64,000 nt of DNA from an uncultured Bacilli bacterium. GTDB taxonomy: Bacteria; Bacillota_I; Bacilli_A; RF39; UBA660. The position numbers and the translations under genes are program-made. Of this stretch, positions 13,826 to 62,995 are shown one piece after another; the stretch's first letter is position 1, and each line of letters begins with the position of its first letter. The notes beneath the pieces are model-generated. The model had not been told where the DNA came from. It saw only the letters and a program-made list of their open reading frames with translations, and did no database searches. Location: positions 43,770 through 107,769 of the forward strand of contig CAKOTD010000002.1 of NCBI GenBank assembly GCA_934120015.1. The letters are read 5' to 3'.

Positions 13826-13826
13826 A

Positions 13827-14228
13827 CTATTTTCCTTTCAATATTCTATTTATTATATGTTCCATAATTATATGCATTAATGAAATTAAGATTGCTAATA
13901 TAAATGGCATAATATAACCATTTATTGAAAAGTGATATCCTAAGATTATATCTGTAATTTTTAGTATTAAAACATTTATCACTGGATAAAATAAACCAAG
14001 TGTCAAAGCCGTTATTGGAAGTGTCAACCAAATTAATAATGGCTTTATTGTTCTGTTTAATATAAATATTATTATTGATGCTAAAACGCTATAAAGACCA
14101 AAATAACTATTATCAATTTGAATAGTATTTTGAAATAATAATGATAAACCAATTAGTATAATAGAATAACTAAGTATTGATATGGCAAAATCAATAAATT
14201 TTATTAAAATGTCTTTTGTTTTTGTCAA
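13827..14228 (-). CDS. DUF360/YvlD-type small membrane protein (phage holin family 4-like)
   Basis: 133 aa with 4 TM helices; 'LTLPITALTLGLFYPVINVLIL…GYHFSINGY' matches the conserved DUF360 pattern. Confidence 0.6.
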   Translation of the reverse strand: MTKTKDILIKFIDFAISILSYSIILIGLSLLFQNTIQIDNSYFGLYSVLASIIIFILNRTIKPLLIWLTLPITALTLGLFYPVINVLILKITDIILGYHFSINGYIMPFILAILISLMHIIMEHIINRILKGK

Positions 14229-14279
14229 AATTCACCATCTCCTATGATTAGTATAACATATATAAATATCTTTTAACAA

Positions 14280-28101: not shown

Positions 28102-29397
28102 TTATTTTATTCTTTCTATTATTTTTTTACATTTATCACAAATTATTTTTTCTTTATCATCTAACAATAAATAATTTTCCATTAATATTTTTCCATTTAT
28201 TATAGTTGTCATTACATTATTTGACTTTACATTATAAACAATTTCTGAAAATATATTATTTAATGGTTTTAATTTTATATCGTTCATATCTATTATAATT
28301 ATATCTGCACATTTTCCTATATCAATACTTCCTACTATATCATCTAAACCTAGTGCCTTTGCACCGTTTATAGTTGCCATTTTAATTATTTCGTAGGCAC
28401 TCATAATTGTAGGATCTTCATTTACACCTTTTTGAAGTAAGGCTGTATATTTCATAGTTTCAAACAAATCTAAATTACTACCACTTCCTTGTCCATCAGT
28501 TCCAAGTGATATATTAATTTTCTTTTCTTTCATATATTTTATATTAGCAATACCACATCCAAGTTTCAAATTACTAACTGGGCAATGGGAAATGCTTATA
28601 TTTAATTTTGATAATTCATCAATTTCTTCTTGTGTTAATTTTACACAATGTGCAAGAATTAACTTATTTGCACTAAAATTATCTTTTAAAACATCTATTG
28701 GATTTCTTTTATATATTTTTATTATATCTTCTACTTCTTTAGTATTTTCACAAAAATGAATATGTACTGGTAAATTATACTTATTTGCTAGTGAAATACA
28801 TTTTTTTATATAATTTTCTTCAGTAGTATATAATCCATGAATTCCTATATTAAATGTTATTCTGTCATTATTATCATACTTTTTTATTAACTCTTCTAAT
28901 TCTTTTATTCTGCTGTTATCAAACTCATTAGAGCTATTTCCCATAAGAGTTCTTGTTGTTTGTAGTCTAATACCACTATCTAATGCAGACTTTATAATAC
29001 TATCTGTCATAAAATACATATCATTAATTGTTGTCGTGCCACTCTTAATCATTTCTATATTTGATAGATAGGATGCATAATATATATCTTCAATAGTTAG
29101 TTTATCTTCCATAGGCCATATTTTCTTTGTAAGCCAGTCTTGAAGATTATATCCATCTATTGTTTCTCTAAATATACTCATTGGTAAATGGGCATGTGTA
29201 TTTATTAAACCGGGCATTACTATTTTATTTGTTGCATCTATTATTTTTACATCTGAATTAACATCAATATTTTTAGCAATCTTAACTATTTTATTTTCAT
29301 CTATTAATATATCTATATTATTTTCTATTTTTTCGTAATTTTCAGACATTGAAATTAATGCTGCATTTTTAATACATATTTTCATACATTCCTCCAT
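28102..29397 (-). CDS. mtaD: Amidohydrolase-family deaminase (MtaD/5-methylthioadenosine–S-adenosylhomocysteine deaminase-like)
   Basis: 431 aa with the metal-binding 'GLINTHAHLPMS' motif and the 'HCVKL', 'HCP' and 'GTDG' motifs typical of MtaD/chlorohydrolases. Confidence 0.8.
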   Translation of the reverse strand: MEECMKICIKNAALISMSENYEKIENNIDILIDENKIVKIAKNIDVNSDVKIIDATNKIVMPGLINTHAHLPMSIFRETIDGYNLQDWLTKKIWPMEDKLTIEDIYYASYLSNIEMIKSGTTTINDMYFMTDSIIKSALDSGIRLQTTRTLMGNSSNEFDNSRIKELEELIKKYDNNDRITFNIGIHGLYTTEENYIKKCISLANKYNLPVHIHFCENTKEVEDIIKIYKRNPIDVLKDNFSANKLILAHCVKLTQEEIDELSKLNISISHCPVSNLKLGCGIANIKYMKEKKINISLGTDGQGSGSNLDLFETMKYTALLQKGVNEDPTIMSAYEIIKMATINGAKALGLDDIVGSIDIGKCADIIIIDMNDIKLKPLNNIFSEIVYNVKSNNVMTTIINGKILMENYLLLDDKEKIICDKCKKIIERIK

Positions 29398-30821
29398 TAT
29401 CTAAATTTTTTAAATTTCTTTTTATTATTATTGTCTATTATTATACTTAATTGATTTTCAAAACATTTAATATCAGGGGCATCTATTAAATTTTTTAATT
29501 CATCAGTACTTGCTATTTTTTGTAATTCTTTAATTAATTCTATTTCATTATTAGTTATAAATATTTTTAATAACTTATCTTTCCCTATTAAATCCTCAAG
29601 ATAATTCCATGGTTCAAAATTTATAATTCTATTATTCATCCTATACTCTATCATCCATCTATAAACTTTAAAATATTCAAAAATTTTATTATTACTAATA
29701 TCTATTTTTAAATCCTCATTTGGATAATATTTCTTCTTTAATAAAATCAAAAAATTTATATTATTAATTTTTTGATATATTATATCAAAATCTTCTTGCC
29801 ATTTACTAATATAATTTTCACCATATAATTTTTTATACTCATTTATATTTAAATTATCATATAATTCATATAAATATATATATTTAATTACATTCTCTAA
29901 GGTAAAATATTTCTTTAGTTCATCTATCATACTATCAATTCCATTACATAAACAAATCTTTTTTAATGTTTCATATCCAAATATTTTTTCTATTTCACTT
30001 TGAAACGAATGATTATTATTTTCTTCATATTTAGATTTTAGTGTTTCTAAACATACTCTAAATAAACTTTTTCCAATATTATTTTCACTTTTTTTAGATA
30101 CTCTTTTATAATATGTAATATCATCCTTAAATTCATTATTTTTTTTTAGTTCTAAACTTAATAAAGCTATCTCTATATCTAACAATGTATCTTCAATTTC
30201 CAATCTTACATCTGGATTTGTATTACTTTCTTCTAAATATAGTATTTTATCTAAGTCCATTAAAATTTTTACTACTTCATGGACATCTAAATATTTTTTC
30301 ATTTCGTTAATTAAGCCTTTTAAATCGGCTTTTAAATAAAATTCTTCTAATTTACTCTTTCCAATTAACTTTTCTATTTTTTTACATATTTTAATTTCAT
30401 TTATATAGCTTGATTCTGATATATTTGTTCCGAAATATCTATTACACATTATTTCTGTATATCCCTCATTAATTGCTCTCCCTAATTCTACTTTTCCACT
30501 ATAAAAATAAAAACCACAATTATACATATTTAAATGTTTAAATCTAGTTGCCATATGAAATAGTTCATGATAAATATTATTATAATCAAAATTTTCCTCT
30601 GATAATGTAATTTTATTTTCTTTTATATTATATTTTCCAAAACAATCGTTCAATGTTATCTTCTCTATTTTAATATTATTTAAATTACTATACATATTTT
30701 CTAATAAATCTTTTAAAAATTTTTGCTGCATTATTTTAATAAATTGATCTGATGACAACTTAAAATTTTTTGTTAATATATCATTTTTATGGTTAAATAA
30801 TTCTTTTTTTAACTGTTTCAT
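29397..30821 (-). CDS. K/N-rich hypothetical protein with HExxH motif (putative zincin-like)
   Basis: 474 aa with 'IYHELFHMATRF…GRAINEGYTEIM' (HExxH plus a downstream E). No signal peptide. Confidence 0.45.
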   Translation of the reverse strand: MKQLKKELFNHKNDILTKNFKLSSDQFIKIMQQKFLKDLLENMYSNLNNIKIEKITLNDCFGKYNIKENKITLSEENFDYNNIYHELFHMATRFKHLNMYNCGFYFYSGKVELGRAINEGYTEIMCNRYFGTNISESSYINEIKICKKIEKLIGKSKLEEFYLKADLKGLINEMKKYLDVHEVVKILMDLDKILYLEESNTNPDVRLEIEDTLLDIEIALLSLELKKNNEFKDDITYYKRVSKKSENNIGKSLFRVCLETLKSKYEENNNHSFQSEIEKIFGYETLKKICLCNGIDSMIDELKKYFTLENVIKYIYLYELYDNLNINEYKKLYGENYISKWQEDFDIIYQKINNINFLILLKKKYYPNEDLKIDISNNKIFEYFKVYRWMIEYRMNNRIINFEPWNYLEDLIGKDKLLKIFITNNEIELIKELQKIASTDELKNLIDAPDIKCFENQLSIIIDNNNKKKFKKFR

Positions 30822-30940: not shown

Positions 30941-32590
30941 TTATTTTTTTATTTTAAAAATCACTTGGTACATATCATCAAAATCAAATTCTTCACTATC
31001 TATTTCAAAATTCATTTTTTCTATTTCATCTGCACATTTTCTAATTTTATTTATAACATCCCTTAATGTAGGTATTTGTGTATCTTCTTCTTCTATCGAA
31101 GGAACTTCTGATTGCTCATCATCAATATCTAATGTTTCTGTTTCAAGTGGTGTTATAACTTGAGCTACTGGAGGCTCTACCTCTTCTGTTTGATTTACAC
31201 TATCTTCGTTTTGATTATTATTTAATGTAGGCTGCTCTATATTCATATCATTAAATTGATTTAAATTAAATTGTGGAAAACTATTCATATCATTTTGAGA
31301 GTTATTACTTTCATAATTACTTTCTTGACTATCAGATACAACATTAAAATTTTGACCAAATATATTTTCTACTGAAGAAGAGGAATCTATTAAATTATTA
31401 TTAATATTATTTTCTGGATTATCAATGTTTTCTTCTATATCATTTTCAGTTTGAAACATATTAAAGAATTTATTTTGTCTTGGATGTTCATTTACTTCAG
31501 TTTCACTTACCTGATTTATATTTGTGTCCATATTTGTATTTTCTGGATTAAAATTTTGTACACTATCATTTATTTGTTCATTATTAAATGAAACATCGTC
31601 TATAATTGGCCCTGGAATAGGATTTTGATAACTCTGTTCTAATGGTTCTACATCATTTACTATTGGAGCTACTGGTATATCAGTTTCATTCATTTCAGAT
31701 TGTTGTATATTATTTTCGGTTGGTAACATATCATCTGTTATTACTGATGCTTGGTCATTTGTATTTTCTGGATTAATATCTTCAAAACCAAAATCTAACA
31801 CTTCTACATCGGCAGATGCATTTGAAGTAGAAACACTATTGTTATTTTGAATAACATTTTCATTGATTTTTGTACTATCATTTGGAATTACAAATGGATT
31901 TGCTGTGTTTGTTAATGATATATTATTTTCTTGAAAATTTTCTTCTATTGGATTTTTATTAAAACTATCAAATACATTTTGTTCTTTTGAATTCAACATA
32001 TTATTTATCTCCTCATCTGTTTTTCTTACTGTAAGTCTTTCGTCAATTATTTTTTTTAACATCTTTTTTTGATCTGATGATTTAAGTCTTAATAATGCTC
32101 TTGCATGACGTTCTGAAATTTTACTTTCCAATAGTGCATCTTGTACTTCATCATCTAAATTTAACAATCTTAATTTATTTGCAATTGTTGATTGTGAAAC
32201 ACCTAGTTTTTTGGCAAGTTCTTCTTGTGTCATATATCCCATATCAAAAATTTTACGATATGATATAGCTTCCTCTATGGGAGTTAAATCCTGTCTTTGA
32301 ACGTTTTCTATAAGAGCTATTTCTGAACTATCTTTATCATTTAAATCAACTATAATTGCTGGTATATTAGTTTTTCCTGACATGACACTAGCTTTATATC
32401 TTCTTTCACCGGCTATAATTTCATATTTATCACCCATCTTGCGAACAATTATGGGCTGAATTACACCATGTTCTCTAATTGATTCTGACAATTCTACTAT
32501 TGCTTTTTCATCAAATTTAATTCTTGGTTGAAAACGATTTGGCAATATGTCCTCTAAATTTAAAAGAACAACCTGACGATCTTCTTTCAT
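30941..32590 (-). CDS. parB: ParB/Spo0J-family chromosome partitioning protein with long disordered C-terminal extension
   Basis: The N-terminal ~200 aa carry the ParB box 'IIAGERRYKAS' and an HTH ('QEELAKKLGVSQSTIANKL'). Residues ~220–500 are a low-complexity N/Q/E/D-rich region, followed by a short ordered tail. No parA is adjacent. Confidence 0.85.
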   Translation of the reverse strand: MKEDRQVVLLNLEDILPNRFQPRIKFDEKAIVELSESIREHGVIQPIIVRKMGDKYEIIAGERRYKASVMSGKTNIPAIIVDLNDKDSSEIALIENVQRQDLTPIEEAISYRKIFDMGYMTQEELAKKLGVSQSTIANKLRLLNLDDEVQDALLESKISERHARALLRLKSSDQKKMLKKIIDERLTVRKTDEEINNMLNSKEQNVFDSFNKNPIEENFQENNISLTNTANPFVIPNDSTKINENVIQNNNSVSTSNASADVEVLDFGFEDINPENTNDQASVITDDMLPTENNIQQSEMNETDIPVAPIVNDVEPLEQSYQNPIPGPIIDDVSFNNEQINDSVQNFNPENTNMDTNINQVSETEVNEHPRQNKFFNMFQTENDIEENIDNPENNINNNLIDSSSSVENIFGQNFNVVSDSQESNYESNNSQNDMNSFPQFNLNQFNDMNIEQPTLNNNQNEDSVNQTEEVEPPVAQVITPLETETLDIDDEQSEVPSIEEEDTQIPTLRDVINKIRKCADEIEKMNFEIDSEEFDFDDMYQVIFKIKK

Positions 32591-39854: not shown

Positions 39855-40065
39855 TTTTTTCCACAATAAAATTTTATTATTTTGAAGGATTTATGAATTT
39901 TAAACATAGATTGTGGAAAACTTTTATTTTTTAAAACACATGTTAATTATAATTTACACATTATATGTGGAAAACTTATTTTTCTATTATAATTTAATGT
40001 TTTTTTATTGTGGAAAGTGTGTTAATTATCTTTTTTTTCTACAATTAAAATTATTTTTCCACAAT
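39855..40065. promoter_or_regulatory. oriC part 1: cluster of at least 6 DnaA boxes (TTTTCCACA / TGTGGAAAA) upstream of dnaA
   Basis: Boxes at about 39857, 39912, 39966, 40008, 40035 (1 mismatch) and 40055, on both strands and embedded in AT-rich DNA. Confidence 0.85.
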
Positions 40066-40151
40066 TTTTGTGTGAATTTTATATTTTTTGTTTGTTTTTT
40101 GTAGAAAAATAAGATAAAATATAGTTATAGTGTTTATCAGGTGGTGGTTTT

Positions 40152-41504
40152 ATGAATTTAGAAAGTATATGGAATTCTTTTTTAGAAAAAATAAAACAAG
40201 AAATTGCACCAATGCTTTTTGAAACTTGGTTTGAAGAAACAAAACTAATATATCTAAACGAAGGAATTGCTAAAGTTATAGTACCAATGCATATTCATAA
40301 AAAACACCTAAAAGAAAATTATAATGATTTAATAACAGAAATTTTTTCCACAGTTAGCGGTTCAAATTTTCAATTTGAATTTTATACTGATGATGAAATT
40401 GAATCAAATATTGAATTTGATACAGATAGTGTAGGGGTACCATCAAATTCATTTCTGGAAAATAATCTAAAACCACAATATACATTTGAAAATTTTATAA
40501 TAGGGGAAAGTAATAAATTTGCTCATGCTGTAGCACTTGCAGTAGCTGAAAAACCTGGTATTATGTATAATCCTTTATTTATATATGGAAAAAGTGGATT
40601 AGGAAAAACTCATTTGATGCACGCAATAGGAAATTATATAGTTAAAAATTCAAAGAAAAATGTATTATATGTTACCAGTGAACAATTTGTAAATGATTTT
40701 ATTGATTTATATAGAAAAAACAAAGAAAATGATAATATAAATGATGTAAAATTTTTTAAATCGAAATACCGTGATATTGATGTGTTAATGATTGATGACA
40801 TTCAGTATCTACAGATTGCTAATAAAGCACAACAAGAATTTTTTAATACTTTCAATGAATTATATGGTAATAATAAACAAATTATAATTACTTCTGATAG
40901 ATCACCAGATGATTTGAAAGCATTAGAGGAAAGATTACAAACAAGATTTAGTTGGGGAATAACAACTAATATATTTCCACCTGATTTTGAATTAAGAATG
41001 AATATTATTGATAAAAAAATAGAAGGAAATGATATGGTTAAAGAATTTCCGCAAGATGTAAAAGAATATATTGCAAGTAATTGTAATACAGATATTAGAA
41101 AATTAGAGGGAGCTATTACTAGAGTAGTTGCTTTTTCAACAATGATGAATGGTTCAACTATTACTATCGATTTAGCAATTGAAGCACTTAAAGATTATTT
41201 TGTAAAGACAATTATATCAAAAAACAAAATAGATATGGTACAGCAAATTGTTGCAGATACATATAACATTACAATAGATGATTTAAAAAGTAAAAAAAGA
41301 AATGCTAATATTGCTGTACCACGACAAATAGCAATGTATATTTGTAGAGTAATATGTGAAGAGTCTTTCCCAAAAATAGGAATGGAATTTGGTGGAAAAG
41401 ATCACACTACAGTTATGCATTCTGTTGATAAAATAAAAAAAGCTATTAAAAAAGATAATAATCTTGATATGGTAATAAAAAAGATAATAACACAAATAAA
41501 ATAA
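40152..41504 (+). CDS. dnaA: Chromosomal replication initiator protein DnaA
   Basis: 450 aa with the AAA+ 'GKSGLGKTHL' motif and a C-terminal DnaA-box-binding domain 'RQIAMYICR'. Confidence 0.97.
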   Translation: MNLESIWNSFLEKIKQEIAPMLFETWFEETKLIYLNEGIAKVIVPMHIHKKHLKENYNDLITEIFSTVSGSNFQFEFYTDDEIESNIEFDTDSVGVPSNSFLENNLKPQYTFENFIIGESNKFAHAVALAVAEKPGIMYNPLFIYGKSGLGKTHLMHAIGNYIVKNSKKNVLYVTSEQFVNDFIDLYRKNKENDNINDVKFFKSKYRDIDVLMIDDIQYLQIANKAQQEFFNTFNELYGNNKQIIITSDRSPDDLKALEERLQTRFSWGITTNIFPPDFELRMNIIDKKIEGNDMVKEFPQDVKEYIASNCNTDIRKLEGAITRVVAFSTMMNGSTITIDLAIEALKDYFVKTIISKNKIDMVQQIVADTYNITIDDLKSKKRNANIAVPRQIAMYICRVICEESFPKIGMEFGGKDHTTVMHSVDKIKKAIKKDNNLDMVIKKIITQIK

Positions 41505-41640
41505 TTGTGGAAAAAATATTTTTATTAACATTTGATGTTTATAAAAATATACAATTTTTACTTATAAAATAAGACTTTATAGATTTTTTCCACTTTTTCC
41601 ACACTAATAATAATAATATTTATATAAAAGGAGAATTAAT
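41505..41640. promoter_or_regulatory. oriC part 2: DnaA boxes (41516 TGTGGAAAA; 41586 TTTTCCACT; 41596 TTTTCCACA) flanking an AT-rich DNA-unwinding element
   Basis: Sequence 41525–41585 is more than 85% A+T and lies between the boxes, giving a bipartite oriC as in B. subtilis. Confidence 0.8.
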
Positions 41641-42762: not shown

Positions 42763-42883
42763 GCTCTTTTTTTTGCAAAATTTTACTTTTTACGACAAAA
42801 TTTGATAAATTTTGACAATTTTGTTTGTTATAAGAAGGATAATATATATTTTTGTTGAAATATATATAAGAGGGGGAAATATA

Positions 42884-43336
42884 TTGAAAAATGAATATGA
42901 AATTAATTCAGAAACATTTGCTGTACTGGCTATAAATAATAATTTGTCAAAAGTAATAGAAAACAATGATGAATTTTTAGTAAATAAAGCAGCAAAAAAA
43001 ATTATTGATAATAGTTGTAAATTTTTTGGAAGTTCTTATGATGGAAGATTTGAAGGTACTAAAAATTTAATAGGTGTTAGTTATAAATCACCTATTATAA
43101 TTGAAGAAAGTAAAAATATTATATTTTTTCCAACATCATCACCAAGAGTTAGTGATTGTTCTTGGATATCTTTAAACAACATTATTAATTATAAAAATAG
43201 TTCTGGCAAAACTAATTTAGTATTTAATAATGGTTATAATCTATATTTGGATATATCCTATTCGATTATTGAAAATCAAATTTTAAGGGCAACTAGATTA
43301 GAAGCAGTTTTGAGAAAAAGAAAAATAGGCAATTAG
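42884..43336 (+). CDS. comK: Competence transcription factor ComK homologue (TTG start)
   Basis: Several blocks align to B. subtilis ComK. 'EYEINSETFAVLA' matches SYEVNGATIAVLP, 'IIDNSCKFFGSSYDGRFEGT' matches IVDRSCRFFGSSYAGRKAGT, 'IFFPTSSPRVSDCSWIS' matches IFLFPTLSSTRPQCGWIS, and 'ISYSIIENQILRATRL' matches ISYNSFENQVYRTAWL. An SD AGGGGGAAA lies 4 nt before the TTG at 42884; the ORF-track N-terminus (from 42812) is probably not translated. Confidence 0.75.
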   Translation: MKNEYEINSETFAVLAINNNLSKVIENNDEFLVNKAAKKIIDNSCKFFGSSYDGRFEGTKNLIGVSYKSPIIIEESKNIIFFPTSSPRVSDCSWISLNNIINYKNSSGKTNLVFNNGYNLYLDISYSIIENQILRATRLEAVLRKRKIGN

Positions 43337-46482: not shown

Positions 46483-48987
46483 GTGAATATTATGAATAAT
46501 AATAATGAAGAAATTAATAAAAATGAATATAATGGTGTTTTTCATGAGAGAGATTCTCATGAAACAAATGATATAGTAAAAGAAATTAGTGATTCTTTTC
46601 TTGATTATTCAATGAGTGTTATAACATCTCGTGCTATTCCAGATTTAAGAGATGGTTTAAAACCTGTACATAGAAGAATTTTATGGTCAATGTTTGAAGA
46701 AGGAAATACTCCAGATAAACCTCATAAGAAGAGTGCTACTACAGTTGGATATGTTATGGGACATTATCATCCACATGGTGATAGTTCAATTTATGAAGCT
46801 ATGGTACGACTTGCTCAAGACTTTAATCAAAGATATATGTTAGTTGATGGTCATGGTAATTTTGGTAATATTGAAGGAGATTCTGCAGCTGCATATCGTT
46901 ACACAGAGGCAAGACTTTCTAAAATATCTCTTGAAATGTTAAGAGATATTCGTAAAGATACAGTAAATAAGATTCCAAATTATGATGAAACAAGTCCTGA
47001 ACCAGTAGTATTACCTTCAAGATTTCCAAATATTTTGGTTAATGGTTCAATGGGAATTGCCGTAGGTATGGCAACAAATATTCCACCACATAATTTAGGT
47101 GAAGTAATTGATGGATGTGTTGCATATATTGATAATCCGGATATTGATACGTTAGGATTAATGGAATATATAAAAGGACCTGATTTTCCTACCGGCGGTA
47201 TAATTCTTGGAAATTCTGGGATAAAAAGAGCATATGAAACTGGTAGAGGATCGATTACGATTAGGAGTAAAGCAACAATAGAAGAAAATAATAATCATAA
47301 CCAAATTGTTATTACAGAAGTTCCATATGGAGTAAATACAATGGAATTAAAAAATAAAGTTGCTGAATTAGTTCATAATAAAACTATAGAAGGAATTACT
47401 GATTATCATACTGATTTAAAAGATGGTGTAAAAATTACAATAACTTTAAAAAAGGATGCAAATGCACAGGTTGTTTTAAATAATTTATACAAACATACTA
47501 ATTTTCAATTAAATTATGGAATAATTTTCTTAGTTATTGATATGGGTACTCCAAAAACATTAGGTATCAAAGATATAATAGCTAAGTATATAGAACATCA
47601 AAAGGAAATAATAATAAGAAGAACTAAATATGATCTTGGTAAGGCAGAAGAAAGAGTTCATATATTAGAAGGTTATAAAATAGCTCAAGATAATATTGAT
47701 GAAGTTGTTAGAATTATTCGTAATGCTGATAGTGATACAGATGCTAAGGAAAAGTTAATTAGTAAGTTTGGTCTTGATGATATACAAGCCGAAGCTATTC
47801 TTGAATTAAAATTAAGAAAACTAACTGGATTAGAAAGAGATAAAATAATTGCAGAATTAGAAGAACTTATGATAGAAATAGCTAAATATCGTGAAATATT
47901 ATCTGATATTAATAAAGTACTTGCAATTATAAAGGAAGAATTATTGGAAATTAAAGAAAAATATGCTGATGAAAGAAGAACAAAAATAGATATGACTGCA
48001 ATTGATTATATTGAAGATGAGTCTTTAATTCCAAATGAAGATGTTATTATTACTCTTACAAATAAAGGTTATATAAAGAGAGTAAATTCAGAAAATTATA
48101 AAGTTCAAAATCGTGGTGGTGTTGGAATTAAAGCAATGACAACAAATGAAGATGATTTTGCACAATATTTGGTAAACATGCATTCACATGATTATTTACT
48201 ATTTTTTACAAATAAAGGAAAGGTATATCGTGTTAAAGGATATGAAATTCCTGAATATAGTAGACAATCAAAAGGATTGCCAATAATTAATTTATTGGCT
48301 TTAGAAAAAAATGAGGTTGTTAAAGGAATGCTTCAAGTTAATTCTGAAGAAAATTGTAAATATATTGTATTTTGTACACAAAATGGATTAATTAAGAAAA
48401 CAAATATAGGAGAATTTGATAGTATTAGAAAAAATGGTAAGATTGCTATCACTTTAAAAGACGATGATGAATTAATTTCAGTATGTAAGACAAATGGTGA
48501 AAATGAGATTTTAATAGCTTCATCGAATGGTAGAATGATTAGATTTAATGAAAATGAAATCAGAATTATGGGTAGAACAGCATCAGGTGTAAAAGGAATT
48601 GATACCTGTGGTGGTATTTGTGTTGGATGTGAAATAGCATCATCATCTCAAAATGTATTAGTAGTAACTGAAAATGGTTATGGTAAAAAAACTGAAATTG
48701 ATGAATATCGTATGACACATCGTGGAAGTAAAGGTGTAAAAGCATTAAATATTACTGAAAAAAATGGAAATATTGTTTCATTTAAAATAATTAATGGTGA
48801 TGAAGATTTAATGATTATCACTGATAGTGGTATAATGATTAAGTTATCGTTAAATCAAGTTTCTCAAACAGGACGTGTTGCTCAAGGAGTAAAACTAATT
48901 AATTTAAAAGATGGACAGAAAGTAAGTACAATTGCTGTTGTTGATAAAGTTGAAGAAATCAGTAATGAAAATTCAACAGAAGAATAA
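46483..48987 (+). CDS. gyrA: DNA gyrase subunit A
   Basis: 834 aa with the 'AAAYRYTEARL' active-site tyrosine region and C-terminal beta-pinwheel repeats. Confidence 0.97.
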   Translation: MNIMNNNNEEINKNEYNGVFHERDSHETNDIVKEISDSFLDYSMSVITSRAIPDLRDGLKPVHRRILWSMFEEGNTPDKPHKKSATTVGYVMGHYHPHGDSSIYEAMVRLAQDFNQRYMLVDGHGNFGNIEGDSAAAYRYTEARLSKISLEMLRDIRKDTVNKIPNYDETSPEPVVLPSRFPNILVNGSMGIAVGMATNIPPHNLGEVIDGCVAYIDNPDIDTLGLMEYIKGPDFPTGGIILGNSGIKRAYETGRGSITIRSKATIEENNNHNQIVITEVPYGVNTMELKNKVAELVHNKTIEGITDYHTDLKDGVKITITLKKDANAQVVLNNLYKHTNFQLNYGIIFLVIDMGTPKTLGIKDIIAKYIEHQKEIIIRRTKYDLGKAEERVHILEGYKIAQDNIDEVVRIIRNADSDTDAKEKLISKFGLDDIQAEAILELKLRKLTGLERDKIIAELEELMIEIAKYREILSDINKVLAIIKEELLEIKEKYADERRTKIDMTAIDYIEDESLIPNEDVIITLTNKGYIKRVNSENYKVQNRGGVGIKAMTTNEDDFAQYLVNMHSHDYLLFFTNKGKVYRVKGYEIPEYSRQSKGLPIINLLALEKNEVVKGMLQVNSEENCKYIVFCTQNGLIKKTNIGEFDSIRKNGKIAITLKDDDELISVCKTNGENEILIASSNGRMIRFNENEIRIMGRTASGVKGIDTCGGICVGCEIASSSQNVLVVTENGYGKKTEIDEYRMTHRGSKGVKALNITEKNGNIVSFKIINGDEDLMIITDSGIMIKLSLNQVSQTGRVAQGVKLINLKDGQKVSTIAVVDKVEEISNENSTEE

Positions 48988-49003
48988 ATGTTTCACGTGA
49001 AAC
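48988..49003. promoter_or_regulatory. parS site 1 (perfect TGTTTCACGTGAAACA)
   Basis: Exact match to the universal ParB-binding consensus tGTTtCACGTGAAACa; it abuts the gyrA stop codon. Confidence 0.8.
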
Positions 49004-49032
49004 ATAATTAAAAAGAATTAATTTAAAACAAT

Positions 49033-49048
49033 GTTTCACGTGAAACAT
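49033..49048. promoter_or_regulatory. parS site 2 (perfect, within 26-bp palindrome AACAATGTTTCACGTGAAACATTGTT; probably doubles as terminator)
   Basis: Exact 16-bp parS inside an extended palindrome, followed by TTTATTATT. Confidence 0.8.
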
Positions 49049-49168
49049 TGTTTTATTATTATGAAAAATAATATTTTAAAGAAACTATTATAATAGATAA
49101 TAACAATAAAAATAAATTTTAGCTATTGTTACCTAAAAAGGTATATTTTGTATAAATATTTATTCTAA

Positions 49169-49184
49169 TGTTTCACGTGAAACA
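49169..49184. promoter_or_regulatory. parS site 3 (perfect)
   Basis: TAATGTTTCACGTGAAACATTA; exact 16-bp core. Confidence 0.8.
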
Positions 49185-49271
49185 TTACTTTAATTTAATA
49201 ATAAAAAGAATACTTGCTGACATATAATATTTAATGTTGTAGTATATTCAAATAAGAAAGGAATTTTAGCT

Positions 49272-49496
49272 ATGGAAAATGAAATATTATTTATAAAAAA
49301 TTATCCAAATGCAAAAGATTCATATTTGGAAAGTACAATTTTGTCAATGAAAGAACTTGAACTTTTATTTCATAAAGTGTTAAAGAAGAATAAAATTATA
49401 TGCTCCACAAATGAATTTGCCAATGTTATGAATTTAACAATTAATAATGAAAAAAGTAACGAATATATTTTCGAGCTATTTGAAAAAAATTATTAA
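49272..49496 (+). CDS. Hypothetical small protein embedded in parS cluster
   Basis: 74 aa ORF with a plausible SD (AGAAAGGAA) about 11 nt upstream. It has no recognisable motif and its coding status is uncertain. Confidence 0.3.
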   Translation: MENEILFIKNYPNAKDSYLESTILSMKELELLFHKVLKKNKIICSTNEFANVMNLTINNEKSNEYIFELFEKNY

Positions 49497-49499
49497 ATA

Positions 49500-49790
49500 A
49501 TGCAATTAAAAAAAACCGTTTTTAAGAAAAAAATAATAACAGAAATAGAAAAAAATTTTAAAATAAGATTAAAAAAAGGTCGATTAAAAAATTTTGAAAA
49601 GTGTCATTCGGATGCAATGAATTATAATGGATATGATATATTAATAAATTATTTAAGAATATATAAAATGTGTACAATTACAAAAATTGTAATAGATAAT
49701 CATATGTTTATAAATTGTAATGAAGAACCTTATGATATAGATGATGTAAATACTCCTATTTCTTATACTGATATGCAAGCGTTTATGTAA
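49500..49790 (+). CDS. Hypothetical small basic protein embedded in parS cluster
   Basis: 96 aa ORF, K-rich at the N-terminus and containing several Cys/His. There is no clear SD, so its coding status is uncertain. Confidence 0.25.
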   Translation: MQLKKTVFKKKIITEIEKNFKIRLKKGRLKNFEKCHSDAMNYNGYDILINYLRIYKMCTITKIVIDNHMFINCNEEPYDIDDVNTPISYTDMQAFM

Positions 49791-49812
49791 GAAAAATAAT
49801 AATATAAATCAA

Positions 49813-49828
49813 TGTTTCACGTGAAACA
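49813..49828. promoter_or_regulatory. parS site 4 (perfect)
   Basis: TCAATGTTTCACGTGAAACATTGA; exact 16-bp core. Confidence 0.8.
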
Positions 49829-49925
49829 TTGATTTTTTAATAAAAGATTACAATTATTATTATAATAATTAATATATGATAAAAATATTAGATATTATTA
49901 TATAGTTTTTTTAACTTGTAATTAA

Positions 49926-49941
49926 TGTTTCACGTGAAACA
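49926..49941. promoter_or_regulatory. parS site 5 (perfect)
   Basis: AATTAATGTTTCACGTGAAACATTAATT; exact 16-bp core inside a 28-bp palindrome. Confidence 0.8.
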
Positions 49942-49997
49942 TTAATTATTATATTTAATATAGTTGCCAAAAATTATAAAAAATGCAATAATATAAA

Positions 49998-50076
49998 TGC
50001 ACAACATTAATGTTTGAAACAGGTCAGAATCGGAAGGTAGCAGCCTTAAAAACCTCTTAATGTGTGTGCTTTTTTT
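49998..50076 (+). ncRNA. ffs: Small (4.5S-type) signal recognition particle RNA
   Basis: 'TGTTTGAAACAGGTCAGAATCGGAAGGTAGCAGCC' matches the universally conserved SRP RNA domain IV (E. coli UGUUUACCAGGUCAGGUCCGGAAGGAAGCAGCC). The 5' GCACAACATTAA pairs with the 3' TTAATGTGTGTGC, followed by a U-run. A putative promoter is TTGCCA-17-AATAAT. The gene sits next to tadA and dnaX, as scr does in B. subtilis. Confidence 0.65.
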
Positions 50077-50098
50077 TATAAAAATACTGAGGTGATTT

Positions 50099-50536
50099 AT
50101 GATAGATTATATGCAAATAGCTATAAAAGAAGCAAAAAAGTCTTTAAAATTTGATGATGTACCTGTTGGATGTGTAATAGTACAAAAAAATAAAATAGTA
50201 GCAAAGGCTTATAATAAAAAAGAAAAAAATAAGTGTATTACAAGACATGCAGAAGTTATTGCTATAGAAAAGGCATGTAAAAAGCTTGGTACATGGCATT
50301 TAGATGATTGTACAATATATACTACTTTAGAACCATGTTTAATGTGTACTACTATTATTTCTCAGAGCAGAATAAAAAATGTTATATATGCTTTGAAAAA
50401 TGATTTCCATGAAGATTTGTTTGATTTTATTGGAAGAGTAGAACCATTAGCTAAAAAAGTTAATAAGAATAAAGGAAGTTTTGAAAAAGAATCATTAGAA
50501 ATGATTCAAAATTTTTTTCAAAAAAAAAGAAAATAA
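50099..50536 (+). CDS. tadA: tRNA-specific adenosine deaminase
   Basis: 145 aa with the 'HAEVIAIEKA' and 'PCLMC' zinc-binding CDA motifs. Confidence 0.9.
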   Translation: MIDYMQIAIKEAKKSLKFDDVPVGCVIVQKNKIVAKAYNKKEKNKCITRHAEVIAIEKACKKLGTWHLDDCTIYTTLEPCLMCTTIISQSRIKNVIYALKNDFHEDLFDFIGRVEPLAKKVNKNKGSFEKESLEMIQNFFQKKRK

Positions 50537-50551
50537 TGATATAATTCTATA

Positions 50552-52183
50552 ATGGGAAGTGGTTATATGTATCAAGCTTTATATAGAAAATATAGACCTA
50601 AAACTTTAAGTGAGATAGCAGGACAAGATGTAATTGTTCGTATATTAACAAATGCTATTAATAATAATCAAATTAGTCATGCTTATTTATTTTGTGGACC
50701 AAGAGGAACAGGAAAGACAAGTATTGCTAAAATTATAGCAAAAATAATTAATTGTTCTGATTTAAAAGATATGAAACCATGTGATAAATGTCAAAGTTGT
50801 ATAGAATTTAATCAAAAAAGTAATACTGATATAATTGAAATAGATGCAGCATCAAATAATGGTGTTGATGAAATAAGAGAATTAAAAAATAAGATTAATT
50901 TAGTCCCAAATTTAGGAAAATATAAAATATATATAATTGATGAAGTGCATATGCTTACAATTGGAGCATTTAATGCTTTATTAAAAACATTAGAAGAACC
51001 ACCTGCACATGCAATATTTATATTAGCAACTACTGAACCACATAAAATTCCTATTACTATTCTTTCAAGATGTCAAAGACTAGATTTTAAGAAAATATCA
51101 CAAAATGCAATATATGAAAGATTAAGATATATATGTGATGAAGAAAAAATAAATGCTACGAATGAATCTTTAATAAAAATAGCTTCATTATGTGATGGTG
51201 GAATGAGGGATTCAATAAGCATGTTAGATAAGTTACTAGCGTATACTAATAATAATATTGATGCTTCTGATGTCATTGAAATCAATGGATTAGTTTCAAA
51301 TGAAGAACTTGAAGAATTATTAAATCTAATTGATAATAAAAATTACAAAATGATTTTTGAGGTGTTAGAAAAATATAATAGTAATGGAAAAAATTTTAGT
51401 AAGTTATGTGAAGAACTAATTTTATGTTTAAGAAATAAAATGGTATCAGAAATAGAAAGTAATAATAATATTAATAATGTAGATAGATATGTTAAGTATA
51501 TTAATGTATTTAATGACATAATTACACAAATTAAAAATTGTAGTAATCAAAAGGTTATAATGGAAACAAATTTGATAAAATTAATGGCAGTTAATGATGA
51601 AAATAAAAAAGAAAAAAAGCCAGAAGATGAAACATTTAAACAAGAAACTAAGAAAATTGTAAAAATAGAAACTTATGAAAATAAGAAAGAAGAAAAAAAA
51701 GAACTAAATGAAGATTATTTAAAAAATTTAGAAAAATTGAAAATAGTTCGTATAAATAATACTTTGAGTAAGTTTGATAAAAAGAAAATTATTGAGTATA
51801 AAAAGCAGTTAGAAAAGATAGATAATTTTATAATAGATCCAGATTATAGTGATTTAGCAGGAATAATATTAGATGGTAATTTAAAGGCTGCAAGTGAAGA
51901 AAATGCTATATTTATTTATGAAAGTTCAAATGTAGCTATAGATTTTAATTGTAAAATTTTACAAATAGAAAATTTATTAGATAAAATTAATTTAAAAATT
52001 AAAGTAATTGCTACAGATATTGATGAATGGGAAGAAATTAAAAAAGAATATAATTCGAAAACAAAGAAATATAATTATAATGATGATCAAAATTTAATAA
52101 AAATGTTATTTAATAGTACTGAAAGTAATCAAAAAAATAGTATTGAGACTATGTTTGATGATATAATAAAATATGATAAATAG
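50552..52183 (+). CDS. dnaX: DNA polymerase III subunit gamma/tau
   Basis: Contains 'YRKYRPKTLSEIAGQD', the Walker A 'GPRGTGKTSIAKIIA', a zinc module 'CDKCQSC', and the 'DEVHML' and SRC motifs. The probable start is the MYQALY Met, 5 codons downstream. Confidence 0.93.
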   Translation: MGSGYMYQALYRKYRPKTLSEIAGQDVIVRILTNAINNNQISHAYLFCGPRGTGKTSIAKIIAKIINCSDLKDMKPCDKCQSCIEFNQKSNTDIIEIDAASNNGVDEIRELKNKINLVPNLGKYKIYIIDEVHMLTIGAFNALLKTLEEPPAHAIFILATTEPHKIPITILSRCQRLDFKKISQNAIYERLRYICDEEKINATNESLIKIASLCDGGMRDSISMLDKLLAYTNNNIDASDVIEINGLVSNEELEELLNLIDNKNYKMIFEVLEKYNSNGKNFSKLCEELILCLRNKMVSEIESNNNINNVDRYVKYINVFNDIITQIKNCSNQKVIMETNLIKLMAVNDENKKEKKPEDETFKQETKKIVKIETYENKKEEKKELNEDYLKNLEKLKIVRINNTLSKFDKKKIIEYKKQLEKIDNFIIDPDYSDLAGIILDGNLKAASEENAIFIYESSNVAIDFNCKILQIENLLDKINLKIKVIATDIDEWEEIKKEYNSKTKKYNYNDDQNLIKMLFNSTESNQKNSIETMFDDIIKYDK

Positions 52184-55785: not shown

Positions 55786-56637
55786 ATGTCACAAAAAAGT
55801 TATATTAATAATGTGCCAACTTTATATTTGATACCAACACCAATTGGCAATTTAGATGATATTACATATAGAGCAGTTAAAACATTACAAAGTGTGGAAG
55901 TTATATTTTCTGAAGATACAAGAGAAACGTTGCAGCTATTAAATTATTTAAATATAAAGAAAAAATTAATATCTAGTCATAGTTATAATGAACAAATGAA
56001 CACTGATAAGTTATTGTCTTATCTTAATTTAGGGAAAGATGTAGGATTGGTTACAGATAGAGGAACTCCTGTAATTAGTGATCCTGGTTACCAGCTTGTA
56101 AAAGTAGCAATTGAAAATAATTTTAATGTTGTTGCATTGCCAGGAACAACCGCTTTTGTACCTGCTTTAATAGTGTCCGGGTTAAATCCTCAGCCATTCC
56201 TATTTTATGGATTTTTAACAACAAAATCTTCAAAGAGAAAAAAAGAATTAGAAACAATAAAAAATTATCCATATACATTAATTTTTTATGAAGCACCTCA
56301 TCGATTAAATGATACTTTGATGGATATAAAAGAGGTATTTGGGAATAGAAAGATTAGTATTTCCCGGGAAATAAGTAAAAAATTTGAAGAAATATATAGA
56401 GGAACAATTGATGAGATTATTTCCCAAGTAAAAGAAGCAAAAGGTGAATTTGTAATAGTAGTTGATGGTAATTATGAAACATTAAATTATAATAATATTT
56501 CACTAGCTGAACATATTGAGTTATTTGTAAAAGAGGGAAATGATTTAAAAAATGCAATTAAATTAGTTGCTAAGGCTCGTAACTTACCAAAATCAGTTGT
56601 GTATAATGAGTATCACAAGTTAGGATGTGAAAAATGA
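55786..56637 (+). CDS. rsmI: 16S rRNA (cytidine1402-2'-O)-methyltransferase RsmI
   Basis: 283 aa tetrapyrrole-methylase fold with 'LYLIPTPIGNLDDITYRA…EDTRETLQLL'. Confidence 0.88.
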   Translation: MSQKSYINNVPTLYLIPTPIGNLDDITYRAVKTLQSVEVIFSEDTRETLQLLNYLNIKKKLISSHSYNEQMNTDKLLSYLNLGKDVGLVTDRGTPVISDPGYQLVKVAIENNFNVVALPGTTAFVPALIVSGLNPQPFLFYGFLTTKSSKRKKELETIKNYPYTLIFYEAPHRLNDTLMDIKEVFGNRKISISREISKKFEEIYRGTIDEIISQVKEAKGEFVIVVDGNYETLNYNNISLAEHIELFVKEGNDLKNAIKLVAKARNLPKSVVYNEYHKLGCEK

Positions 56638-62226: not shown

Positions 62227-62742
62227 ATGAAGGCAACTGGTGTAGTACGAAGAATAGATGAACTTGGAAGAATTGTTATACCAAAAGAACTAAGAAAAAA
62301 CTTACACATAAAAGAAGGAGAAAATATTGAAATATATACTAATGAAAATGACAATATAATACTTAAAAAATTTTCCTCATTAAAAAAAATAGTTGATTTT
62401 GCAGATATAATTGCCGAATCTATATATAGTGTTACTAAATATAATACATTAATTTTTGATAATGATTCTGTTGTTGCTTATGCAGGAAAAACTAAAAAAG
62501 ATTATCAAAATAAGTATATAGGAGATTTTCTATTAAATAATTTAGAATTTAAACTAACAAAGGAAAAAGAAAAAATAGCAATTGTAAATGATAGGGAGGA
62601 TGAAGTTTATTATAATGCAAAGAAAATAAGTAATGGTAAAGATAAAATAGGAGGTATTATTGTATTTTCTAGTGAAAAAGAGGTAAATATTGGTCAAACT
62701 ATTGACATTATTTGTGCTTTTTTTGAAAATTATCTTGAATAG
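62227..62742 (+). CDS. spoVT: Stage V sporulation protein T (AbrB-type N-domain + GAF-like C-domain)
   Basis: 'MKATGVVRRIDELGRIVIPKELRKNL' is the SpoVT/AbrB swapped-hairpin domain. At 171 aa and located after mfd, it matches B. subtilis spoVT. Confidence 0.85.
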   Translation: MKATGVVRRIDELGRIVIPKELRKNLHIKEGENIEIYTNENDNIILKKFSSLKKIVDFADIIAESIYSVTKYNTLIFDNDSVVAYAGKTKKDYQNKYIGDFLLNNLEFKLTKEKEKIAIVNDREDEVYYNAKKISNGKDKIGGIIVFSSEKEVNIGQTIDIICAFFENYLE

Positions 62743-62799
62743 ATATTACATATATGTTAAAATATATACATTAAATACAGTGAAGAAAAGAATTTTAAG

Positions 62800-62995
62800 C
62801 TTTTATTTAAAGAGAGTTTGTGTTTGGTGGGAGCAAATAATAATACTTAAAATAGATGGTTTTGGATTGTAGTCTAATCGAAATGTAGGTTAGAACGTAG
62901 GGTGAGTGCGTTAAACGAAAGAGATATAGTTTTTACTATAAATTAAGGTGGTACCACGCAAAAAGCGTCCTTATATAGGACGTTTTTTTGTATTT
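62800..62995 (+). promoter_or_regulatory. T-box riboswitch leader with intrinsic terminator, upstream of metG
   Basis: The conserved T-box sequence 'AATTAAGGTGGTACCACG' (62941–62958) is followed by the terminator AGCGTCC-ttatata-GGACGTTTTTTT, and the downstream gene is an aminoacyl-tRNA synthetase. Confidence 0.75.

What the first reader, a model, noticed from the sequence alone, without database searches (positions are those of the whole stretch)
48988..49941. Centromere-like array of five perfect parS sites immediately downstream of gyrA
The 16-bp palindrome TGTTTCACGTGAAACA is the canonical ParB (Spo0J) binding site. It occurs five times without a single mismatch within 954 bp (48988, 49033, 49169, 49813, 49926). 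I saw no other copy in the remaining 63 kb. B. subtilis scatters about 10 mostly imperfect parS sites across hundreds of kb, so five perfect sites at this density is unusual for a chromosome. This looks like a dedicated ParB nucleation and SMC loading hub about 8 kb right of oriC. Each site also sits inside a longer, differently extended palindrome (up to 28 bp), so some may double as terminators or cruciform-forming elements.
Basis: partly seen in the sequence, partly recalled or inferred. Interest (0 to 1): 0.78.

Follow-up and report, generated by a model that had tools for sequence, protein, structure and literature searches.

The report
Origin-proximal parS centromere array after gyrA
Five perfect ParB-binding (parS) sites packed into 1 kb just after gyrA are a real chromosomal centromere conserved at this spot across a whole lineage of uncultured gut Bacilli, but the ParB-like gene in the window that was assumed to bind them is a Noc-type paralog predicted to read a different site.

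Summary
Five mismatch-free TGTTTCACGTGAAACA sites lie at 48989, 49032, 49169, 49813 and 49926. There are no others in 64 kb even at 3 mismatches, and shuffles give none.

The array is conserved. In 81 loci from related uncultured gut Bacilli, 332 parS-like sites fall within 2.5 kb downstream of gyrA (about 150 kb in total) and none in the other 1.25 Mb. The reading as a ParB loading centromere about 9 kb from oriC is well supported. It is a dense example of a known kind.

Two parts of the interpretation fail. First, the 549-aa product of 30941-32590 is Noc-type. It carries Q173/K179/N184/R201 where parS readers have R173 and G201, it matches Noc better than Spo0J, and a perfect Noc-binding site sits at 56359. 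Relatives carry a canonical Soj-Spo0J (R173/G201) on the same contigs as the gyrA-downstream array. In this species that gene lies outside the window and I did not find it. Second, a general terminator role is not supported, because T-tracts show no strand asymmetry.

Side findings: parS and NBS sites are interleaved in more distant relatives, and a large family of Noc-type proteins has long disordered linkers and no membrane helix.

The parts
48989..49004 (.). parS site 1. The perfect 16-mer lies inside the 18-bp palindrome 48988-49005 and starts one base after the gyrA stop codon.
49032..49047 (.). parS site 2. It lies inside the 32-bp perfect palindrome 49024-49055 and is terminator-like on both strands.
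   Evidence: I17
49169..49184 (.). parS site 3, inside the 22-bp palindrome 49166-49187.
49813..49828 (.). parS site 4. It lies inside the 30-bp palindrome 49806-49835, just after the stop of the 96-aa ORF. It is 84% identical to site 2 over 51 nt, with one compensatory pair of changes in the flanks.
   Evidence: D1, I19
49926..49941 (.). parS site 5. It lies inside the 30-bp palindrome 49919-49948, about 25 bp upstream of the promoter-like site for the SRP RNA gene.
   Evidence: I20
46483..48987 (+). gyrA. Its 3' end is the conserved anchor of the array across the lineage.
49272..49790 (+). Two small ORFs (74 aa at 49272-49496, 96 aa at 49500-49790) between sites 3 and 4. They are specific to this species. 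They have no homolog in 80 relatives and no family match. They are probably an insertion into the array and not part of the centromere.
49992..50079 (+). ffs (small SRP RNA) at the right edge of the array. In relatives it is flanked by parS sites on both sides.
50099..52183 (+). tadA (50099-50536) and dnaX (50552-52183), the conserved genes to the right of the array. In some relatives further parS sites lie between them and inside dnaX.
30941..32590 (-). Noc-type ParB paralog of 549 aa: ParB N-domain with GERRYKA, an HTH with Q173/K179/N184/R201, a disordered linker of about 300 aa and a C-terminal domain of about 45 aa. It has no N-terminal membrane helix.
56359..56372 (.). Perfect Noc-binding site ATTTCCCGGGAAAT inside rsmI (55786-56637). 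The same position (+6.5 to +7.4 kb from gyrA) carries an NBS in many relatives.
39857..41603 (.). oriC region: DnaA-box clusters upstream of dnaA (39857-40063) and in the dnaA-dnaN spacer (41506-41603), with the GC-skew switch. The array starts 7.4 kb to the right of the second cluster.

Best explanation
The five sites form the chromosomal centromere of this organism. They are nucleation sites where dimers of a canonical ParB (Spo0J type, with R173 and G201 in the recognition helices) bind, close as CTP-dependent clamps and slide out. This builds one partition complex about 9 kb to the right of oriC. By analogy with B. subtilis, S. pneumoniae and C. glutamicum, that complex would recruit SMC and, where Soj is present, be moved by ParA. 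Packing five sites into 953 bp multiplies the loading rate at a single position.

The ParB that reads the sites is not encoded in the window. The only ParB-family gene here (30941-32590) is a Noc-type paralog that reads the separate NBS class of sites.

Shown here: the sites exist and are non-random. Their position is conserved across the lineage and they are excluded from everywhere else sampled. parS and NBS form two discrete classes. The window protein has Noc-type residues. Canonical Soj-Spo0J and the gyrA-downstream array occur together on single contigs of relatives.

Inferred: this species has its own Spo0J elsewhere in the genome, ParB actually binds the array, and SMC is loaded there.
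For: 1. The sequence is the canonical parS consensus. There are five perfect copies and no weaker copies in 64 kb.
2. The location is origin-proximal.
3. Across the window and 80 related loci (GyrA 64-80% identical), the 149,691 bp of gyrA-downstream zones hold 332 sites with up to 2 mismatches, 201 of them perfect. The other 1,254,569 bp hold none. The median is 5 sites per genome and the maximum is 12.
4. Most one-mismatch variants are TGTTCCACGTGAAACA, which still fits the TGTTNCACGTGAAACA consensus.
5. Sites fall into two discrete classes with essentially no hybrids: parS (201 perfect) and NBS TATTTCCCGGGAAATA (51). This implies two separate homodimeric readers.
6. Relatives carry a canonical Soj-Spo0J. 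In L106, Soj (KGGVGKT) is followed by a 296-aa Spo0J reading GKSRSHITNILGLLR...MGHAR, which has R173 and G201.
7. The same organism's 179-kb contig has three tandem parS sites at +45, +80 and +115 after gyrA.
8. A 355-kb contig of another relative carries Soj-Spo0J (RMRG), the Noc-type gene and three parS sites at +3, +40 and +77 after gyrA.
9. Of 120 Spo0J homologs at 70% identity or more from Bacilli, Mollicutes and Firmicutes MAGs, all 118 readable ones have R173 and 113 have G201.
10. The array is identical in at least four assemblies of this species.
Against: No canonical ParB, ParA or SMC gene lies in the 64-kb window. tblastn at E up to 10 found only the Noc-type gene, and there is no KGGxGK[ST] motif in any frame. 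The next 6.5 kb to the right has none either.

At the position where close-synteny relatives have soj-spo0J (after uvrB, holin-like, lgt, trxB), the window has other genes. Loss of Spo0J in this particular species is therefore not excluded. I could not retrieve the rest of its genome.

Nothing here shows binding, spreading or SMC loading. Whether parS sites occur elsewhere in this genome is untested beyond about 70 kb.
Confidence: 0.8

Rival explanations
1. The ParB-family protein encoded at 30941-32590 is the protein that binds the array, either because it has dual parS/NBS specificity or because its context changes the rules worked out for Caulobacter ParB.
For: It is the only ParB-family gene within about 70 kb of oriC in this species. 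It has an intact CTP-binding box, GERRYKA, and a ParB-type HTH. Position 184 is N and not the K of Noc. Dual-specificity variants exist in the mutational screen. In more distant relatives NBS and parS sites are interleaved in the same locus.
Against: Residue 173 is Q and residue 201 is R in all 116 readable orthologs and all 134. In the systematic screen, parS-specific variants have an invariant R173, while Q173 reads A1 and R201 reads C6 of the NBS when K179 is present (PMC7383237). Perfect NBS sites exist and are positionally conserved, so this protein already has a cognate site. There are no parS/NBS hybrid sites, which a relaxed reader would tolerate. Relatives with the same QKNR protein also carry a canonical Spo0J.
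Confidence: 0.07
2. The palindromes work mainly as nucleic-acid hairpins (intrinsic terminators, REP-like elements or cruciforms), and their match to parS is secondary.
For: Sites 2 and 4 score as terminator-like hairpins: 3 found in the region against 0.1 expected. Palindromes extend 4 or more pairs beyond the 16-mer at 43% of intergenic parS sites, against about 1% at control positions, and the flank sequences vary. Sites 2 and 4 differ by a compensatory pair of changes. Many tadA-dnaX sites start at the stop codon and are followed by a T-run.
Against: The 16-bp core is invariant while the flanks vary, which is the reverse of what selection on structure alone would give. There is no strand asymmetry: T-runs 3' occur at 21% of sites and A-runs 5' at 25%, p = 0.33, although all the genes here run in one direction. 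Extension also occurs at parS sites inside coding sequence (24%) and at NBS sites (32%). That pattern fits a general property of long perfect palindromes, for example template-switch correction of quasi-palindromes (my inference). Terminators or REP elements would be dispersed, whereas these sites are confined to one locus.
Confidence: 0.05
3. The array is an orphan. This species has lost Spo0J (the soj-to-rpsR block is missing from its ancestral place) and the sites persist without a reader, or are read by an unrelated protein.
For: soj-spo0J is absent from the syntenic position after trxB and from all sequence recovered for this species. The closest Noc-type loci (L096-L099, L105, L107, L108) also lack soj within 10 kb.
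Against: All five sites are perfect with no decay. The closest relatives (GyrA 78-80% identical, L004-L008) likewise keep 2 to 7 perfect sites, which indicates continuing purifying selection. The block missing after trxB includes the essential genes rpsF, ssb and rpsR, so it has moved and not been lost. In the 355-kb relative soj-spo0J moved with that block.
Confidence: 0.08

Closest known systems
Origin-proximal chromosomal parS clusters bound by ParB/Spo0J. Counts are total / origin-proximal: B. subtilis 10/8, S. pneumoniae 4/4, C. glutamicum 10/10, C. crescentus 5/5, S. coelicolor 21/21, and the P. aeruginosa parS1-4 cluster (PMC7022226 Table 1 and text).
   Same: The 16-bp consensus is identical. 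There are several copies. They lie within the origin domain. The presumed role is ParB nucleation, and in Firmicutes and Actinobacteria also SMC recruitment.
   Different: All copies sit in one stretch of 1 kb or less at a fixed gene boundary (the gyrA 3' end), and none was found elsewhere in the sequence sampled. The density is about one site per 190 bp here and as close as every 28 bp in relatives. That is far higher than in those model species, whose sites spread over kilobases to hundreds of kilobases (spreads recalled from my own knowledge). The parB gene is not next to the sites.
Plasmid tandem centromeres such as F sopC, twelve 43-bp repeats each holding a 16-bp inverted repeat for SopB (from my own knowledge; not tested here).
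   Same: Several ParB-type binding palindromes are packed at short spacing. Relatives have true tandem units of 28, 35-37, 44, 53 and 79 bp.
   Different: This array is chromosomal and uses the universal chromosomal parS sequence. In the window itself the five sites are individually embedded and are not a regular tandem repeat.
Noc and its NBS sites in B. subtilis and S. aureus (PMC7383237, PMC8429893).
   Same: The window's ParB-family protein has Noc-type specificity residues and the same gene position after rsmG. Perfect 14-bp NBS sites are present.
   Different: It lacks the 10-residue N-terminal membrane-targeting helix that defines Noc function. It carries a disordered linker of about 300 residues. 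In more distant relatives its sites are concentrated and interleaved with parS next to gyrA instead of being scattered.

Membership tests
Chromosomal parS (ParB/Spo0J centromere site) | A 16-bp palindrome matching TGTTNCACGTGAAACA. | tested here: met
   Five perfect matches. All 201 perfect sites in the lineage share the 18-bp form ATGTTTCACGTGAAACAT.
Chromosomal parS (ParB/Spo0J centromere site) | Location in the origin-proximal domain. | tested here: met
   The array lies 7.4-9 kb from the DnaA-box clusters and the GC-skew switch.
Chromosomal parS (ParB/Spo0J centromere site) | A cognate ParB with a parS-type recognition helix (R173, G201) encoded in the same genome. | tested here: inconclusive
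   None in the window or 6.5 kb beyond it. It is present on the same contigs as the array in two relatives and in 118 of 118 readable lineage homologs. The rest of this species' genome could not be retrieved.
Chromosomal parS (ParB/Spo0J centromere site) | A few discrete sites, not a dispersed repeat family. | tested here: met
   No sites in 1.25 Mb outside the gyrA-downstream zones of 81 loci, and none elsewhere in the window at up to 3 mismatches. Whole genomes were not available.
Chromosomal parS (ParB/Spo0J centromere site) | ParB binding and spreading at the sites in vivo or in vitro. | not testable with these tools
   This needs ChIP-seq, EMSA or bio-layer interferometry.
Canonical ParB/Spo0J (for the product of 30941-32590) | R at position 173 and a small residue (G, S, C or T) at position 201 of the HTH, in Caulobacter numbering. 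| tested here: not met
   The sequence [15 protein letters not shown]...SERHAR gives Q173 and R201. Orthologs give the same result: 116 of 116 readable and 134 of 134.
Noc (for the product of 30941-32590) | Specificity residues Q173, K179, K184 and R201. | tested here: met
   The residues are QKNR, so three of four match. The model requires K at 179 or at 184, and K179 is present.
Noc (for the product of 30941-32590) | N-terminal 10-residue amphipathic membrane-targeting sequence. | tested here: not met
   The protein starts about 21 residues later than Geobacillus Noc: query residue 5 aligns with chain residue 26 of 7NFU. Only about 16 residues precede PNRFQPR across the family. The feature is defined in PMC8429893.
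Noc (for the product of 30941-32590) | Reaches the curated score of NCBIfam TIGR04285. | tested here: not met
   It scores 277 bits against a cut-off of 315, and only profile positions 1-201 of 255 align.
Noc (for the product of 30941-32590) | Cognate NBS sites in the genome. | tested here: met
   A perfect ATTTCCCGGGAAAT lies at 56359. There are 51 perfect 16-mers in relatives, including one at the same position inside rsmI.
Intrinsic terminators | A GC-containing stem followed by a T-tract on the transcribed strand. | tested here: not met
   Two of the five sites qualify. Across the lineage there is no excess of 3' T-runs over 5' A-runs: 21% against 25%, p = 0.33.
Tandem-repeat centromere (sopC-like) | Regular head-to-tail units each carrying one binding palindrome. 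| tested here: not met
   The window shows no tandem unit, with spacings of 43, 137, 644 and 113 bp. The feature is met in relatives L059, L049, L076, L067, L127 and L128.

The most novel reading that the evidence does not exclude
In this lineage the origin-proximal centromere may be a composite element read by two CTP-switch paralogs. One is canonical Spo0J on parS. The other is a Noc-derived protein that has lost its membrane anchor, gained a disordered linker of 180-780 residues, and has sites co-located and even co-amplified with parS (a 79-bp unit holding one NBS and one parS, repeated four times in L067). On this reading the Noc paralog has been repurposed from nucleoid occlusion to origin organisation. 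In species such as this one, where soj-spo0J has left its ancestral place, it might partly or wholly take over.
Probability: 0.12. Interest if true: 0.75.

Novelty: new member of a known kind. Interest (0 to 1): 0.42.

Why it matters
The array itself is a textbook element, parS near oriC, in an unstudied and uncultured gut lineage. Its value is as a natural extreme. All ParB loading sites are compressed into one locus of 1 kb or less, at a position held fixed over deep divergence (GyrA down to 64% identity), and copy number ranges from 2 to 12. That variation offers a natural series for asking how site number and spacing set ParB loading and the size of the partition complex.

For annotation, it shows that a ParB/Spo0J-labelled gene next to rsmG cannot be assumed to be the parS reader. 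The four specificity residues separate it cleanly. Public annotation pipelines currently call this large Noc-type family "ParB/RepB/Spo0J family partition protein". The repeats also break metagenome assemblies right after gyrA: 19 of 81 contigs end within 700 bp of it.

Tried and rejected
1. I looked for a second ParB or ParA in the window with tblastn and a Walker-A motif search. Nothing was found.
2. I looked for QKNR in the mutational-scan supplement of Jalal 2020. It is not in the text that is held.
3. The exhaustive representative search with the N-terminal domain was meant to reach canonical ParBs. All 150 top hits were the same long-linker family, because the variable linker splits it into many clusters.
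4. Three neighbourhood look-ups of Noc-type orthologs found no soj-spo0J. The metagenome scan then found it in L106.
5. Extending the window with edge proteins failed for two ORFs, with no exact gene call on record. Mfd worked. It showed IS elements after MetRS and no soj within 6.5 kb, which rejects the idea that this species shares the aaRS-tatD-ksgA-tilS-ftsH-soj layout of L120.
6. I tried to tie a Spo0J cluster to this species through DnaA contig statistics. The window's DnaA is not among the hits; the best is 75% identical.
7. Megablast between the Spo0J-bearing loci and the gyrA loci found no same-species overlap; the best is 78%.
8. The terminator hypothesis was tested by T/A-tract asymmetry and rejected as a general rule.
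9. orf474 (29397-30821) was considered as a divergent ParB and rejected, with no relevant family even at E up to 1.
10. Livny et al. 2007 (PMC2168934) is not held.
Full report
**Observation.** The window holds exactly five perfect copies of TGTTTCACGTGAAACA, at 48989, 49032, 49169, 49813 and 49926. No other copy exists in the 64 kb at up to 2 or up to 3 mismatches. Dinucleotide-preserving shuffles give 0 matches at up to 2 mismatches and a mean of 0.29 at up to 3. The first site begins one base after the gyrA stop codon (gyrA 46483-48987). The last ends 50 bp before the SRP RNA gene (49992-50079). The sites sit inside perfect palindromes of 18, 32, 22, 30 and 30 bp. The same array with the same spacing appears in at least four independent metagenome assemblies of the same species.

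**Setting.** The window is an origin region of a genome with about 25% GC. GC skew changes sign near 40 kb. The gene order rpmH-rnpA-yidC-jag-mnmE-mnmG-rsmG lies to the left of dnaA. To the right lie dnaA, dnaN, a ComK gene, recF, gyrB and gyrA. DnaA boxes cluster upstream of dnaA and in the dnaA-dnaN spacer. After the array come ffs, tadA, dnaX, ybaB, recR, holB, a PSP1 gene, a methyltransferase, rsmI, pth and mfd. GyrA relatives at 64-80% identity are all uncultured gut Bacilli MAGs. They include Clostridium sp. CAG:594, Candidatus Aphodocola, Candidatus Coprosoma and Candidatus Fimihabitans, and some are labelled Mollicutes or Tenericutes.

**Conservation.** I mapped parS-like sites in the 80 related loci, each covering gyrA with up to 10 kb on either side. 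Every site lies between the gyrA stop codon and about +2.3 kb. Together with the window, the gyrA-downstream zones total 149,691 bp. They hold 332 sites: 201 perfect, 97 with one mismatch and 34 with two. The remaining 1,254,569 bp hold none. Most one-mismatch forms are TGTTCCACGTGAAACA, which still fits the TGTTNCACGTGAAACA consensus. Among the 51 loci with a complete zone, the median is 5 sites, the maximum is 12, and three loci have none. The gene order gyrA-array-tadA-dnaX-recR is conserved. Sites occupy each intergenic gap, and in one subgroup they also lie inside the dnaX reading frame, read as VSRET. Several relatives have true tandem units of 28, 35-37, 44 and 53 bp. Nineteen of the 81 contigs end within 700 bp after gyrA, as expected when repeats break assemblies. 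The motif is confined to one locus and is not a dispersed repeat.

**Which protein reads the sites.** It does have ParB N-terminal and HTH domains. However, its best solved relatives are Noc proteins: 214 bits against 165 for B. subtilis Spo0J. NCBIfam scores it 277 bits for the Noc model against 180 for the generic ParB model. It sits directly after rsmG, where noc sits in Bacilli.

Its recognition region, [38 protein letters not shown], places Q, K, N and R at the four positions (173, 179, 184, 201 in Caulobacter numbering) that Jalal et al. showed to set parS against NBS preference. In their screen, parS-specific variants always have R173 and mostly G201. Q173 reads A1 and R201 reads C6 of the NBS, provided K is present at 179 or 184 (PMC7383237). 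All 116 readable orthologs from the first search and all 134 from the representative search carry Q173 and R201.

A perfect NBS, ATTTCCCGGGAAAT, lies at 56359 inside rsmI. Relatives hold 51 perfect NBS 16-mers, one of them at that same position. parS and NBS form two discrete classes with essentially no hybrids, which points to two separate homodimeric readers. The window contains no second ParB-family gene and no ParA-type Walker A motif.

**Finding the canonical ParB.** Neighbourhoods of three Noc-type orthologs showed no soj-spo0J. A metagenome scan then recovered L106, a 179-kb contig at 27.6% GC. There the long QKNR protein is followed, after uvrB, a holin-like gene, lgt and trxB, by Soj (KGGVGKT) and a 296-aa Spo0J reading GKSRSHITNILGLLR...MGHAR, which has R173 and G201.

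Using that Spo0J as the query returned 120 homologs at 70% identity or more from Bacilli, Mollicutes and Firmicutes MAGs. All 118 readable ones have R173 and 113 have G201. Their conserved neighbourhood is soj-spo0J-mscS-DUF951-transporter-ychF-rpsF-ssb-rpsR, the classic B. subtilis arrangement.

Two look-ups then tied the ParB and the array together on single molecules. The L106 organism's contig has three tandem parS sites at +45, +80 and +115 after gyrA. A 355-kb contig of another relative has three sites at +3, +40 and +77, the QKNR protein next to rsmG, and Soj-Spo0J (RMRG) about 25 kb to the right of the array.

**This species.** The uvrB, holin-like, lgt and trxB block is present at 16247-12130 on the minus strand. 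The soj-to-rpsR block that follows it in L122 is absent. Since rpsF, ssb and rpsR are essential, that block has moved and not been lost. It is not within 6.5 kb of the window's right end, where MetRS is followed by IS transposases. The presence of a Spo0J in this exact species is therefore inferred, not shown.

**Hairpins and terminators.** All 201 perfect sites share an extra A...T pair, giving an 18-bp unit. Extension by 4 or more further pairs occurs at 43% of intergenic parS sites, 24% of parS sites in coding sequence and 32% of intergenic NBS sites, against about 1% at control positions. The flank sequences differ between sites, and sites 2 and 4 differ by a compensatory pair of changes. 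Sites 2 and 4 score as terminator-like, and many tadA-dnaX sites are followed by T-runs.

Across all sites, however, 3' T-runs (21%) are no commoner than 5' A-runs (25%, p = 0.33), although transcription here runs in one direction. A general terminator role is therefore not supported. The symmetric extension also occurs in coding sequence and at NBS sites. I think it is more likely a DNA-level consequence of long perfect palindromes, such as template-switch correction of quasi-palindromes. That is my inference and I did not test it.

**Mechanism.** The best-supported reading is a standard ParB-parS partition complex nucleated at one very dense locus about 9 kb from oriC, read by a canonical Spo0J encoded elsewhere. 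Soj is present at least in relatives. SMC recruitment is inferred by analogy with other Firmicutes (PMC7022226). The Noc-type protein reads NBS sites.

**Comparison with known systems.** Several origin-proximal parS sites are the rule. The review's Table 1 lists B. subtilis 10 (8 near the origin), S. pneumoniae 4, C. glutamicum 10, C. crescentus 5 and S. coelicolor 21. What differs here is quantitative: all sites lie at one gene boundary, at roughly one per 190 bp, and that position is conserved over deep divergence. I found no description of such gyrA-downstream arrays or of parS/NBS co-arrays in the held literature, but that library is incomplete. I file the window's array as a new member of a known kind.

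**Side findings.** The Noc-type family fails one defining feature of Noc. It lacks the 10-residue membrane-targeting helix. It also carries a linker rich in N, E, P and S, with total lengths of 383-982 aa. In more distant relatives NBS and parS sites are interleaved next to gyrA, and in L067 they are co-amplified as a 79-bp unit. These features are more unusual than the array in the window and would merit their own follow-up.

Noticed in passing
window 30941-32590 (-); P0121-P0268: A large family of Noc-type ParB paralogs: more than 150 clusters at 50% identity, 383-982 aa. They have Q173/R201, an intact GERRYKA box, no N-terminal membrane-targeting helix, a disordered linker rich in N, E, P and S of very variable length, and a conserved C-terminal domain of about 45 aa. 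Public annotation calls them ParB/RepB/Spo0J partition proteins.
   Followed up: partly
L040, L044, L046, L047, L058, L062, L064, L066-L069, L072, L073, L078 (0 to +2.5 kb after gyrA); L067 12479-12765: In more distant relatives, perfect Noc-binding sites are interleaved with parS sites in the same gyrA-downstream zone. L067 has a 79-bp tandem unit holding one NBS and one parS-like site, repeated four times.
   Followed up: partly
window 56359-56372; relatives at +6.5 to +7.4 kb from gyrA: A perfect NBS inside the rsmI coding sequence, conserved at the same position in many relatives.
   Followed up: partly
L011 14271-14286 and 14337-14352: parS sites lie inside the dnaX reading frame, in its variable linker region, and are translated as D-VSRET-S and N-VSRET-L. 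The same pattern at about +1.8 kb occurs in a whole subgroup of relatives.
   Followed up: partly
L059 12653-12812; L049 12636-12816; L076 10599-10939; L127 18911-18996; L128 18875-18964: Regular tandem parS arrays with units of 28, 44, 53, 35 and 37 bp, resembling plasmid centromeres. L076 contains a run of N inside the array.
   Followed up: partly
window 49272-49790: Two small ORFs (74 and 96 aa) with a good ribosome-binding site sit inside the array. They have no homolog in 80 relatives and no Pfam, NCBIfam or PHROG match, but are present in every assembly of this species. They look like a recent insertion.
   Followed up: partly
window 42812-43336; L085, L127, L128: A ComK-family gene sits between dnaN and recF and is conserved across the lineage.
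   Followed up: no
window 62227-62742; L124 21852-22058; L085 15842-16357 and 20186-21041: Sporulation-type genes (SpoVT, an SASP, SpoIIR, SpoIID) occur in a lineage whose MAGs are often labelled Mollicutes, Tenericutes or Mycoplasmatota.
   Followed up: no
L124 17436-19869 (just past the window's right end): Two or three IS transposase genes (rve family) lie directly after MetRS. One assembly's contig ends exactly there, and gene order beyond differs from the relatives.
   Followed up: no
window 12130-16247 versus L122 4937-15916: The soj-spo0J-mscS-DUF951-ychF-rpsF-ssb-rpsR block that follows trxB in some relatives is missing from that position in this species. In the 355-kb relative it sits after tilS-ftsH, about 25 kb to the right of the array.
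   Followed up: partly
window 62771-62975: A T-box leader (100.5 bits) lies upstream of the MetRS gene that runs off the window.
   Followed up: no
window 23281-24366; L087 4517-9757: A collagen-repeat protein lies in the window. In L087 and L088 the Noc-type gene is flanked by six paralogous Gp10_C-domain genes.
   Followed up: no
L004-L083: Nineteen of 81 contigs end within 700 bp after the gyrA stop codon. The parS repeats appear to fragment metagenome assemblies at this point.
   Followed up: partly
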